Counted from the stretch's first letter, positions 6,290 through 6,655 are shown. The stretch is DNA of 64,000 nucleotides from an uncultured virus (IMG/VR IMGVR_UViG_2576861536_000004) (IMGVR_UViG_2576861536_000004), one strand, 5' to 3'. Made by a program: numbers and translations. The notes: generated by a model not told the origin, from the letters alone.

Positions 6290-6362
6290 TAAAAAAGGTG
6301 AGGGGAACCACCCCCTCACTAAAGTCAAACCAAAATAATTCGAATTATGTCCGTATTATCTT
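6290..6362 (-). ncRNA. Predicted ~70-nt sRNA with intrinsic terminator
   Basis: Minus-strand TATATTTG at 6377-6370, then ...UUUUGGUUUGACUUUA, then hairpin GUGAGGGG/CCCCUCAC and a U-tract. Confidence 0.55.
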
Positions 6363-6655
6363 GATTCTGCAAATATACAGTATTTGATCAGTTGTGTGCA
6401 AGTCAACGTATTAGCATATTCTATTTTCATGCAACGTTCATAATACATATCGTATATTTTCTTTAATCGTGCATTTAATATGTCCTTATCAGGTCTTTTT
6501 ACTACTTTCCCGTTTTTGAATTCATTCTCAGCATCTATTATGATGTTAGTTGGTATATATCTGGTTGCTAAGTTGTGGGATACGGCAATCCGTACTTTGT
6601 GTTTGCCGTTCAACATTTTTTTTGTCGACACTATAGTTATGAATAGATTAGCCAT
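6356..6655 (-). pseudogene. Truncated tyrosine integrase (N-terminal arm-binding region only)
   Basis: N-terminus (NGKHKVRIAVSHN..TRYIPT...GKVVKRPD..LN.RL) resembles Bacteroidales phage integrases; stops at 99 aa with no catalytic domain. Confidence 0.7.

What the first reader, a model, noticed from the sequence alone, without database searches (positions are those of the whole stretch)
6290..6377. Predicted sRNA antisense to a leader motif repeated in phage transcripts
Seen: a minus-strand unit with a TATATTTG box and terminator contains UUUUGGUUUGACUUUAGUGAGGG. This is complementary to CCCTCACCTAAAGTCAAACCAAAA at 9723-9746 (23 nt with one bulge), just upstream of the nut-like site. Shorter GTCAAACCA-type matches lie in the leaders at ~7042, ~12613 (Sak), ~20003 (ParB, one mismatch) and ~25911 (DUF3560), and on the minus strand at ~7967. 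Established: P4 CI RNA and P1 c4 RNA give RNA-based immunity by pairing with early transcripts. Inference: an sRNA kept in an older element remnant could silence lytic genes of this phage family in trans.
Basis: partly seen in the sequence, partly recalled or inferred. Interest (0 to 1): 0.78.

Follow-up and report, generated by a model that had tools for sequence, protein, structure and literature searches.

The report
Phage small RNA antisense to leaders
A conserved ~75-base RNA gene beside the integrase of a family of Bacteroides temperate phages, kept here in a decayed prophage remnant, is complementary to the untranslated leaders of several lytic-cycle operons and changes in step with them, which suggests RNA-based control of phage growth.

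Summary
Window 6291-6377(-) holds a Bacteroides-type -7 box (TATATTTG), a ~75-nt two-hairpin RNA and an intrinsic terminator. Its seed is complementary to 9723-9746 (23 nt, one bulge) and to a GTCAAACCA motif in phage leaders (6 copies, 0.63 expected).

Relatives show an independent, conserved gene. There are 26 sequence variants in 6 hairpin types, all with the same fold. The unit follows 54 of 55 related integrases, and in some phages an extra gene with its own terminator lies between. It occurs in 86 IMG/VR contigs and in 14 of 151 Bacteroides genomes searched.

In nine phage genomes the seed complement recurs only on the sense strand, in leaders about 20 nt before the start codon. Seed and leader motif co-vary (UUGGUUUGAC with GTCAAACCAA; UUUGUUUGAC with GTCAAACAAA).

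The motif is not a host UTR feature. The unit lies in the right arm of an older prophage with a gutted integrase, next to an intact-looking prophage inserted at the BTnc049 sRNA gene.

No transcript or regulatory effect was shown. It matches no Rfam family, no deposited phage genome and no paper found.

Best reading: a trans-acting "anti-leader" sRNA that works like P1 c4 or P4 CI but is not a member of those families.

The parts
6370..6377 (-). -7 promoter box TATATTTG (Bacteroides TAnnTTTG type) of the small-RNA gene
   Evidence: position. The box is conserved at the same offset in 79 of 80 IMG/VR loci that were picked only by seed plus terminator; only the nn positions vary (TC, TA, AC, CC). 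23 of 26 distinct variants have TAnnTTTG.
6291..6365 (-). Predicted ~75-nt sRNA. The 5' hairpin is 6365-6329, the single-stranded linker UUGACUUUA is 6328-6320, the terminator stem-loop is 6319-6298 and the U-tail is 6297-6291. The seed complementary to targets is 6335-6313. The 5' end is inferred, not mapped.
   Evidence: MFE -26.8 kcal/mol, z -4.17, 0 of 200 shuffles as stable. All 26 variants share the architecture and fold better on this strand in 26 of 26. CM R1 scores 110.3 bits here, and this is the only copy in the window.
6356..6655 (-). Truncated integrase (99 aa). Residues 1-91 align to residues 1-91 of 393-aa relatives; the catalytic part is deleted.
   Evidence: Pfam Arm-DNA-bind_5, E 3.5e-07. 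BLASTP 58/91 identical to the L074 integrase. Full-length relatives are 392-393 aa and match PHROG 1.
6861..6884 (+). att core TCAACACAAAAACTAAACTAGACT, the junction between the old remnant (left) and the intact-looking prophage (right)
   Evidence: The same 24-mer flanks the related 63.6-kb prophage in genome G008 (2 copies). It occurs once in G007, beside the remnant. Homology breaks at 6884/6885 in G001, G003 and G005 and in organism A contigs.
6821..6910 (-). BTnc049-like sequence spanning the att core. The phage integrates into, and rebuilds, the end of this host sRNA gene.
   Evidence: Rfam RF04179 scores 66 bits here, below the gathering score of 81.9. It scores 116.9 bits across attR of G008 and 105.5 bits in G007.
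9723..9746 (+). Longest target site (23 nt plus 1 bulged C). It starts right after the stop codon of the 67-aa early ORF 9519..9722 and is single-stranded in the consensus fold.
   Evidence: Cofold ddG is -16.4 kcal/mol against -2.8 +/- 1.9 for shuffled targets, minimum -9.3. The site is conserved directly after different upstream genes in G006, G008, G010 and G014.
9747..9830 (+). Conserved structured RNA element (three hairpins) directly 3' of the long site; function unknown
   Evidence: RNAalifold on 5 phages gives 26 pairs, 2 with compensatory changes. The single-sequence fold is not significant, z -1.44.
12610..12622 (+). Leader motif AAAGTCAAACCAA, 24 nt from the G of GTC to the ATG of the Rad52/Sak-like gene (12637..13428)
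   Evidence: ddG -14.6 kcal/mol, beyond all 100 shuffles. The predicted duplex also covers AAUUAUG.
19998..20013 (+). Leader motif variant AAAAATCAAACCAATA ahead of the ParB_N gene (20024..21697)
   Evidence: ddG -12.5 kcal/mol, beyond all 100 shuffles.
25909..25921 (+). Leader motif AAGTCAAACCAAA ahead of the DUF3560 gene (25935..26723), behind a terminator-like hairpin
   Evidence: ddG -12.3 kcal/mol, beyond all 100 shuffles. In the orthologous leaders of G010, G003 and G019 the motif is kept while the spacer diverges.
7042..7052 (+). Weak site GTCAAACCAAA, 6 nt after a TATATTTG box and ahead of ORF 7063..7392
   Evidence: ddG -6.1 kcal/mol, not beyond shuffles.
7967..7975 (-). Weak site GTCAAACCA on the minus strand, sense to minus-strand ORF 7389..7856 and about 110 nt upstream of it
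   Evidence: ddG -5.9 kcal/mol, not beyond shuffles.
1..6860 (.). Right arm of an older related prophage (remnant). It holds unknown ORFs, UmuC/UmuD-like genes (2263..3989, minus strand), the sRNA unit and the truncated integrase.
   Evidence: Present at 85-88% identity in the B. hominis chromosome G007, beside BTnc049 and without the phage. Joined to host flank at 6885 in organism A. G002 is 99% identical to window 38290-63760 but has its own right arm, 75-82% identical to window 4182-6060, with a full integrase.

Best explanation
Window 6291-6377(-) is a stand-alone gene for a ~75-nt trans-acting antisense RNA that belongs to the lysogeny module of a family of Bacteroides temperate phages. 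It is read from a host-type TAnnTTTG promoter and ends at its own intrinsic terminator. The RNA has a 5' hairpin, a single-stranded linker and a terminator hairpin. The segment UUUUGGUUUGACUUU(AGUGAGGG), helped by a CAUAAUU stretch in the first hairpin, pairs with the 5' leaders of several phage operons. The leader target is the motif AAAGUCAAACCAA, lying about 14-24 nt before an AAUUAUG start. The RNA also pairs with a longer 23-nt site just behind the early operon. The most likely effect is to occlude the Shine-Dalgarno-less initiation region, or to trigger decay of lytic early/middle transcripts. That would be a second, RNA-based layer of immunity beside the CI-like repressor, and it would bias related incoming phages away from lytic growth. 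In this window the copy survives in the right arm of an older prophage whose integrase has been gutted, next to an intact-looking prophage that carries the targets. Shown here: anatomy, conservation, complementarity, covariation, phage specificity and remnant status. Inferred: transcription, the 5' end, pairing in vivo and the direction of the effect.
For: 1. The gene.
- The -7 box, fold and terminator are conserved in 26 distinct variants of 6 hairpin types. The RNA strand folds more stably than its complement in 26 of 26, because of G.U pairs.
- 79 of 80 loci picked only by seed plus terminator have TAnnTTTG 32-36 nt upstream, with only the nn positions varying.
- Invariant alignment columns cluster in the box, the seed and the terminator.
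- In G014-, G015-, G016- and G019-type phages the unit follows a separate gene that has its own hairpin and T-run, so it is not merely an integrase 3' UTR.
- It accompanies 54 of 55 integrases at 66% identity or more; the 55th is cut by a contig end. It accompanies 0 of 25 at 48-53% identity.
- Two independent integrase truncations both spare it: the N-terminal 91 aa are kept here, and the C-terminal 118 aa are kept in B. hominis G007.

2. The targets.
- Sites with 11 or more contiguous complementary bases, sense/antisense strand and including the RNA's own locus: window 5/0, G010 8/0, G012 8/0, G013 5/0, G003 5/0. Shuffles give 0.4-1.1 on both strands together.
- The sites lie in leaders before AATTATG starts.
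- Cofold ddG values are -16.4, -14.6, -12.5 and -12.3 kcal/mol for 9723, 12613, 20002 and 25911. Each lies beyond all 100 shuffled targets.

3. Covariation.
- G013 has seed UUUGUUUGAC, with AGTCAAACA x5 and AGTCAAACC x1 in sense leaders. Seven UUGGUUUGAC genomes have AGTCAAACC x3-8 and AGTCAAACA x0, except G012 with x2.
- The G012 seed insertion UUUUAUUU matches its AAATAAAAG leaders (18-19 nt). The G016 four-U run matches its ACTAAAAG leaders (16-17 nt).
- At the long site, the A-run length changes together in the RNA and the site (G010 two A, G014 three A). The only internal substitution, C versus T, gives a G.U pair.

4. Phage specificity.
- AAGTCAAACCA occurs once in the 5.1-Mb G007 genome, and that copy is the unit itself.
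- It occurs 14 times in the 6-Mb G008 genome, 8 of them inside the 64-kb prophage and all on the forward strand.
Against: - No transcript was seen. The RNA-seq runs that hold the region were available only as long contigs, which show neither ends nor strand.
- A TAnnTTTG box by itself is at chance frequency in the window.
- In the MFE fold the UUUUGG part of the seed is paired inside the 5' hairpin, leaving only UUGACUUUA free.
- The covariation rests on a handful of independent events among related phages.
- Several locus sets were picked with the seed itself, so seed invariance there is partly by construction. The integrase-based set is free of that bias.
- MAFFT/RNAalifold finds only 4 of 22 pairs with double-sided changes.
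- The leader motif may have a function of its own.
- A complete-looking phage sits next to the remnant copy, so the RNA does not prevent lysogenisation.
Confidence: 0.65

Rival explanations
1. The RNA is real, but leader pairing is not its job. It arose from an inverted copy of a leader cassette and now serves something else, such as control of integrase or excision expression, processing of the integrase mRNA 3' end, or a host target. The complementarity would be inherited rather than selected.
For: The unit's + strand reads like a leader cassette: the motif followed 23 nt later by AATTATG. It is always linked to the integrase module. Where it abuts the integrase stop codon, integrase transcripts would run into it.
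Against: The seed is the most conserved unpaired part, while both hairpins change sequence. Seed and leaders change together in G013, G012 and G016. The shared stretches of 13-19 nt are too short for gene conversion. The unit persists after integrase loss in two independent remnants. The host genome G007 has no other copy of the 11-mer.
Confidence: 0.14
2. There is no functional sRNA. The stretch is just the terminator and 3' UTR of the integrase gene. GTCAAACC is a cis-acting DNA or RNA signal of this phage family, such as an operator for a phage regulator, a promoter-proximal element or a translation enhancer, and one copy happens to lie here.
For: The motif is always oriented with transcription and often lies 10-20 nt after a TAnnTTT[A/G] box inside 95-nt repeated promoter-leader cassettes. 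A protein that co-evolves with its site would also produce phage-specific motif variants.
Against: The motif has no dyad symmetry. Complementarity extends beyond the motif in site-specific ways that follow the RNA, into its terminator arm (CCCTCAC) at the long site and into the G012 insertion. A conserved -7 box sits 32-36 nt upstream in 79 of 80 loci. The unit stands behind another gene's terminator in many phages. G.U pairs make the fold specific to one strand in 26 of 26 variants.
Confidence: 0.15
3. The two 23-nt copies are attachment-site or recombination scars, or a chance repeat.
For: They are direct repeats 3.4 kb apart, one of them beside an integrase fragment.
Against: The true att core is a different 24-mer at 6861-6884. 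It flanks the related prophage in G008 and lies within BTnc049. In G008 the two 23-mers lie about 60 kb apart inside the prophage, at 2552241 and 2612530. Both copies are conserved across divergent phages while their flanks differ.
Confidence: 0.03

Closest known systems
c4 antisense RNA of phages P1/P7 (immI region)
   Same: A small phage RNA of about 77 nt that confers immunity by pairing, through exposed segments, with repeated complementary sites in a lytic-function transcript. Specificity differences define immunity types. (Passages of the review PMC12197685 read; other details recalled.)
   Different: c4 is cut out of the same operon that carries its targets (recalled). Here the RNA has its own promoter and terminator next to the integrase, and the targets are leaders of several dispersed operons. 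There is no sequence or structure match to any Rfam family in 6100-10200 at E up to 5. The host phylum differs and lacks Hfq (recalled).
CI RNA of satellite phage P4
   Different: P4 CI is processed from the leader of the operon it controls and causes premature termination (recalled). Here the gene is separate, most sites lie at translation starts, and there is no homology.
STnc6030 of Salmonella prophage BTP1
   Same: A prophage-encoded antisense RNA expressed in lysogens that excludes the same phage. Escape mutations map to a short seed region, and the induced prophage is not inhibited (abstract and passages of PMC7067206).
   Different: STnc6030 is a 500-786-nt cis-antisense RNA overlapping structural genes. 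Here the RNA is a ~75-nt trans-encoded RNA against 5' leaders.
Lambda OOP and P22 sar RNAs
   Same: Small phage antisense RNAs that tune the lysis-lysogeny decision (passages of PMC12197685).
   Different: Both are cis-encoded, fully complementary to one overlapping target. The unit here acts on several distant, partly complementary sites.
RteR sRNA of the Bacteroides conjugative transposon CTnDOT
   Same: A trans-acting sRNA encoded by a mobile element of Bacteroides, near its integration/excision genes, that represses the element's own transfer genes.
   Different: A different element type, with no sequence relation tested. No multi-copy leader motif is known to me.

Membership tests
Stand-alone bacterial trans-acting sRNA gene (generic definition) | Own promoter | tested here: inconclusive
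   The TAnnTTTG box is conserved at a fixed offset in 79 of 80 loci, with variation only at nn. It sits behind another gene's terminator in many phages. No transcription start was mapped, and the box alone is at chance frequency.
Stand-alone bacterial trans-acting sRNA gene (generic definition) | Intrinsic terminator and conserved secondary structure on one strand | tested here: met
   Terminator found. All 26 variants fold alike, and 26 of 26 are more stable on the RNA strand. z -4.17.
Stand-alone bacterial trans-acting sRNA gene (generic definition) | Conserved seed complementary to targets encoded elsewhere, with covariation | tested here: met
Stand-alone bacterial trans-acting sRNA gene (generic definition) | Detected transcript of the predicted size | not testable with these tools
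   Only assembled RNA-seq contigs were available, and they show no ends or strand.
P1/P7 c4 antisense RNA (Rfam C4 family; name recalled) | Match to the family's covariance model | tested here: not met
   There is no such hit among all 4227 Rfam families, either at gathering score over the whole window or at E up to 5 over 6100-10200.
P1/P7 c4 antisense RNA (Rfam C4 family; name recalled) | Encoded in and processed from the same operon as its targets | tested here: not met
   Anatomy shows a separate unit with its own box and terminator, on the strand opposite to all targets and 0.7-20 kb away from them.
P1/P7 c4 antisense RNA (Rfam C4 family; name recalled) | Pairs with repeated complementary sites in lytic-function transcripts | tested here: met
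   Met by computation only.
P4 CI RNA | Processed from the leader of the controlled operon; causes premature termination at seqA/seqC | not testable with these tools
   The anatomy argues against a same-operon origin. Termination could not be assessed.
Prophage attachment-site repeat (attL/attR) | The identical core flanks the integrated element and marks the host-phage junctions | tested here: not met
   The att core is a different 24-mer at 6861-6884. The 23-mers lie inside the prophage in G008.
Lambda sib-type retroregulator | Lies beyond attP, downstream of int, so that integration separates it from int | tested here: not met
   The att core lies upstream of the integrase start (6861-6884, against the int start at 6655). 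The unit therefore stays linked to int in both states.
Described Bacteroides sRNAs (BTnc families in Rfam) | Match to an Rfam BTnc model | tested here: not met
   Only BTnc049 matches, and it does so at the att site, not at the unit.

The most novel reading that the evidence does not exclude
The unit is the effector of an RNA-based immunity system of Bacteroides temperate phages. Its co-evolving seed/leader pairs (GG/CC versus UG/CA, plus lineage-specific extensions) would define immunity groups. Host lineages would keep the RNA in gutted prophage remnants as a domesticated defence, or a lysogeny-biasing device, against related phages. The 23-nt site behind the early operon has the best complementarity, reaches into the RNA's terminator arm and lies at no start codon. 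It would be the phage's own sponge, soaking up the RNA on induction so that the middle operons escape.
Probability: 0.3. Interest if true: 0.85.

Novelty: new variant of a known kind. Interest (0 to 1): 0.72.

Why it matters
- Post-transcriptional control in Bacteroides phages is essentially uncharted. My literature searches found no report of a phage sRNA in this genus, and a 2025 review of phage-derived sRNAs does not mention Bacteroides.
- This RNA family is common in the data searched: 86 IMG/VR contigs and 14 of 151 Bacteroides species genomes.
- It has a clear, testable seed-target code with natural compensatory variants.
- It acts in a phylum without Hfq or Shine-Dalgarno-led initiation.
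- It could explain immunity groups and lysogeny bias among abundant gut prophages.
- It gives a natural example of a prophage remnant kept for an RNA.
- It offers a compact, programmable repressor of Bacteroides leaders.

Tried and rejected
- **att-site idea.** My first idea was that the two 23-mers are attL/attR of a 3.4-kb element. I rejected it once the real att core and the BTnc049 target were mapped.
- **Free circular phage.** I first read G002, G003 and G004 as showing that the whole window is a free circular phage in attP form. I replaced this with remnant plus prophage after three findings: B. hominis G007 has the left arm without the phage, organism A's contigs join 6885 to host flank, and G007 carries a different integrase truncation. 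A free genome with a dead integrase is not strictly excluded, because the window ends before the phage's right arm.
- **Guide RNA of a TnpB/TldR-like protein.** The neighbouring 412-aa and 140-aa ORFs have no Pfam, PHROG, NCBIfam or PADLOC match. They lie on the other strand, about 260 nt (140-aa ORF) and 690 nt (412-aa ORF) from the unit's 3' end.
- **Rfam.** No family matches the unit.
- **GenBank phages.** The 111-nt unit has no match in 50,697 records. The 8-kb region matches only at tRNAs and a few short gene pieces.
- **The 16-mer scan of viral contigs.** It returned 119 stretches. Of the 80 loci listed in the output, only 9 are related to the window by BLAST (3 further related loci, L088, L090 and L121, were among those not listed); the rest are chance matches.
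- **RNA-seq.** Four runs were laid, and all were contigs. No starts, ends or strand could be read, and parts without cover say nothing.
- **Sliding RNAduplex scan.** A scan of whole genomes timed out. I replaced it with exact-match counting and cofold on chosen sites.
- **Sigma-70 promoter scan.** It is uninformative for Bacteroides: 6 found against 6.5 expected.

Full report
**1. What is in the window**

The minus strand of 6291-6377 reads, 5' to 3':
- a TATATTTG box (6377->6370);
- four bases;
- a 75-nt stretch, AUCAAGAUAAUACGGACAUAAUUCGAAUUAUUUUGGUUUGACUUUAGUGAGGGGGUGGUUCCCCUCACCUUUUUU.

The stretch folds into three parts: a 5' hairpin (nt 1-37), a free linker UUGACUUUA, and a nine-pair G+C-rich hairpin followed by CUUUUUU. 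The MFE is -26.8 kcal/mol, z is -4.17, and 0 of 200 shuffles fold as well. The terminator scan calls the second hairpin on the minus strand.

The + strand at 6313-6335 and at 9723-9746 is the same 23-mer except for one extra C in the second copy. GTCAAACCA occurs six times against 0.63 expected. ATCAAACCA lies before the ParB_N gene.

**2. Surroundings**

The ORF 6356..6655(-) has only an Arm-DNA-bind_5 domain. Its residues 1-91 align with residues 1-91 of 393-aa integrases (58 of 91 identical), and the remainder of the integrase is deleted. Relatives with full-length integrases (392-393 aa, PHROG 1) have the same unit directly after the stop codon.

The real attachment core is TCAACACAAAAACTAAACTAGACT at 6861-6884, upstream of the integrase.
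- It flanks a related 63.6-kb prophage in the complete chromosome G008.
- It lies inside the host sRNA gene BTnc049. Rfam RF04179 scores 116.9 bits across attR of G008 and 105.5 bits in G007, and gives a 66-bit partial match at window 6821-6910(-).

To the right of the core lies an intact-looking prophage:
- a CI-like repressor at 8662..9063(-) (PHROG 8/4);
- a rightward early operon at 9168..9722;
- tRNA-like genes;
- recombination and replication genes and structural genes up to at least 63760.

To the left (1-6860) lies the right arm of an older, related prophage.
- B. hominis G007 has this arm at 85-88% identity beside BTnc049. It has one att core and none of the phage.
- RNA-seq contigs of 'organism A', from three studies, join 6885 to host flank.
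- G001 has the same arm at 99% identity next to a phage with a different immunity region.
- G002 is 99% identical to window 38290-63760. It has its own right arm, 75-82% identical to window 4182-6060, with the unit and a full integrase.

The remnant in G007 has a different integrase truncation, with the C-terminal 118 aa kept. The integrase thus decayed twice independently while the unit stayed intact.

**3. Is it a gene?**

Eighty loci were fetched through the integrase protein alone, a set not biased by the seed.
- The unit follows the integrase in 54 of 55 loci at 66% identity or more. The 55th is cut by a contig end.
- It follows the integrase in 0 of 25 loci at 48-53% identity.

In the G014-, G015-, G016- and G019-type phages, and in 7 of 12 genomic loci examined, a separate 149-aa gene lies between the integrase and the unit. 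That gene has its own hairpin and T-run, and the unit keeps its own box.

Twenty-six distinct variants fall into six 5'-hairpin sequence types.
- All are 70-77 nt from the inferred start.
- All fold into hairpin, free linker containing UUGACUU, and terminator.
- All 26 fold more stably than their complement.

In 80 IMG/VR loci picked only by seed plus terminator, 79 have TAnnTTTG 32-36 nt upstream, with four different nn pairs; the 80th is cut. Invariant alignment columns cluster in the box, the seed and the terminator. The sequence-only alignment gives modest formal covariation, 4 of 22 pairs.

The family is in 86 IMG/VR contigs and in 14 of 151 Bacteroides-genus genomes searched with model R1, one copy each. 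It matches no Rfam family and no GenBank phage record.

**4. Targets**

In each of nine phage genomes the reverse complement of the seed recurs only on the strand of the phage's forward genes. It lies in leaders of the form ...TAAAAGTCAAACCA(A)...AATTATG.

Sites with 11 or more contiguous complementary bases, counted as sense/antisense and including the RNA's own locus:

| Genome | Sense / antisense |
|---|---|
| window | 5 / 0 |
| G010 | 8 / 0 |
| G012 | 8 / 0 |
| G013 | 5 / 0 |
| G003 | 5 / 0 |

Shuffled genomes give 0.4-1.1 on both strands together.

In the window, RNAcofold gives these net energies:

| Site | ddG (kcal/mol) | Beyond all 100 shuffled targets? |
|---|---|---|
| 9723 site | -16.4 | yes |
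| Sak-like leader (12613) | -14.6 | yes |
| ParB_N leader (20002) | -12.5 | yes |
| DUF3560 leader (25911) | -12.3 | yes |
| 7042 | -6.1 | no |
| 7967(-) | -5.9 | no |
| third D1 cassette (before 25311) | -2.7 | no |

For the three strong leaders the predicted duplex has two parts: the seed with the motif, and CAUAAUU of the first hairpin with AAUUAUG, so the duplex spans the start codon.

The motif is not a host feature. AAGTCAAACCA occurs once in G007, and that copy is the unit. It occurs 14 times in G008, 8 of them inside the prophage and all forward.

**5. Covariation**

- G013 carries the seed UUUGUUUGAC. Its leaders carry GTCAAACAAA: AGTCAAACA x5 and AGTCAAACC x1.
- Seven genomes with UUGGUUUGAC carry AGTCAAACC x3-8 and AGTCAAACA x0, except G012 with x2.
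- The seeds of the window, G010 and G003 find no site of 11 nt or more in G013. The G013 seed finds 0-1 sense-strand sites in the other genomes (plus 2 antisense in G010).
- G012 has a UUUUAUUU insertion after the seed, and its leaders read AAATAAAAGTCAAACC (matches of 18-19 nt).
- G016 has a four-U run, and its leaders read ACTAAAAGTC (16-17 nt).
- The long site begins right after the stop codon of different upstream genes in the window, G006, G008, G010 and G014. Its A-run length tracks that of the RNA (G010 two, G014 three). Its single internal substitution relative to the RNA's complement is C to T, which gives a G.U pair.
- The site is unpaired in the consensus fold, which places three conserved hairpins directly 3' of it, with 2 compensatory pairs among 5 sequences.

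These shared stretches are too short for gene conversion, so selection for pairing is the simplest account. The number of independent events is small, and the phages are related.

**6. Mechanism**

The best-supported model is a trans-acting anti-leader RNA. It would be expressed from a host-type promoter in the lysogeny module. It would occlude the A-rich, Shine-Dalgarno-less initiation regions of early/middle operons, or mark those transcripts for decay. This would back up the repressor and act on related incoming phages.

The role of the 23-nt site is open. It could be a main target: a duplex long enough for a double-strand RNase, lying ahead of the tRNA and replication genes. It could instead be a phage-made sponge that frees the middle operons on induction.

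Transcription, the 5' end, pairing in vivo and the sign of the effect are all inferred. Rival explanations and their odds are given in the fields above.

**7. Comparison with known systems**

The unit works like P1/P7 c4 and P4 CI, in that a small RNA acts on repeated sites in lytic transcripts. Like BTP1 STnc6030, it would be a prophage RNA acting on its own phage type. It is not a member of these families.
- There is no model match.
- It has its own promoter and terminator rather than being processed from the target operon.
- Its targets are dispersed 5' leaders.

It is not a sib-like element, because the att core lies on the other side of the integrase.

Five full-text searches found nothing on phage sRNAs in Bacteroides (search listings only). 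BTnc049 appears once, as an RbpB-bound sRNA candidate (a passage of bioRxiv 10.1101/2023.12.22.572801).

**8. Verdict**

I rate it a new variant of a known kind, with interest 0.72.

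Noticed in passing
window 6821-6910 (-); L144 7954-8063 (-); L145 772-881 (-): The phage family integrates into the host sRNA gene BTnc049 (Rfam RF04179) and carries a replacement end for it. The att core is TCAACACAAAAACTAAACTAGACT. Full-score BTnc049 spans attR in two Bacteroides chromosomes.
   Followed up: yes
window 10027-10102, 11509-11640, 11985-12068 (+): There are three odd phage tRNA-like genes. The first has an 8-nt anticodon loop (ARAGORN reports 'taat', Leu|Ile ambiguous; Rfam tRNA 58 bits). 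The second is 132 nt, with an insert that itself looks like a T-arm. The third is read either with a 4-base anticodon or, with a 12-nt intron, as anticodon UCA.
   Followed up: partly
window 12530-12624, 19919-20013, 25206-25300 (+): A 95-nt promoter-leader cassette is repeated three times (73-89% identity). Each copy has two AAATGGCG direct repeats, a TTTG, and a TAnnTTTA box (A instead of the usual G), followed by the leader motif. These may be phage-specific regulated promoters.
   Followed up: partly
window 9747-9830 (+); also about 33060-33075 (-): A conserved three-hairpin RNA element lies behind the early operon, with two compensatory pairs among five phages. It ends in ACAGAGAAGAGTTCTTTGAC. 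The AGAGAAGAGTTCTTT core recurs once more in the window on the minus strand. Its function is unknown, and the 'nut-like' label is untested.
   Followed up: partly
window 23720-23846 (+): Two tandem copies of a 63-64-nt unit (94% identical) lie just before and into the start of ORF 23816..24478.
   Followed up: no
window 23816-25199 (+): A weak ParB_N-like ORF is followed by a TET-associated glycosyltransferase (PF20691, E 7.7e-14). This hints at a DNA base hypermodification module in the phage.
   Followed up: no
window 2263-3989 (-): UmuC-like (IMS, IMS_C, DUF4113) and UmuD-like (Peptidase_S24) genes lie in the prophage remnant, conserved with it in B. hominis.
   Followed up: no
window 4364-6035 (+): Two ORFs (412 aa and 140 aa) lie beside the unit and have no match in Pfam, PHROGs, NCBIfam or PADLOC. 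They are conserved at 75-82% DNA identity in the right arm of the related phage G002.
   Followed up: partly
L144 1542-1695 (+) (G008 prophage right arm): An RT-3 RNA (Rfam RF03068, 130.6 bits), a reverse-transcriptase-associated ncRNA, lies in the moron region of the related prophage. It is not present in the window.
   Followed up: no
window 54291-62720 (+): A single ORF of 2809 aa lies at the end of the structural region, with internal repeats (families D4 and D5). It is probably a tail fibre or host-recognition protein.
   Followed up: no
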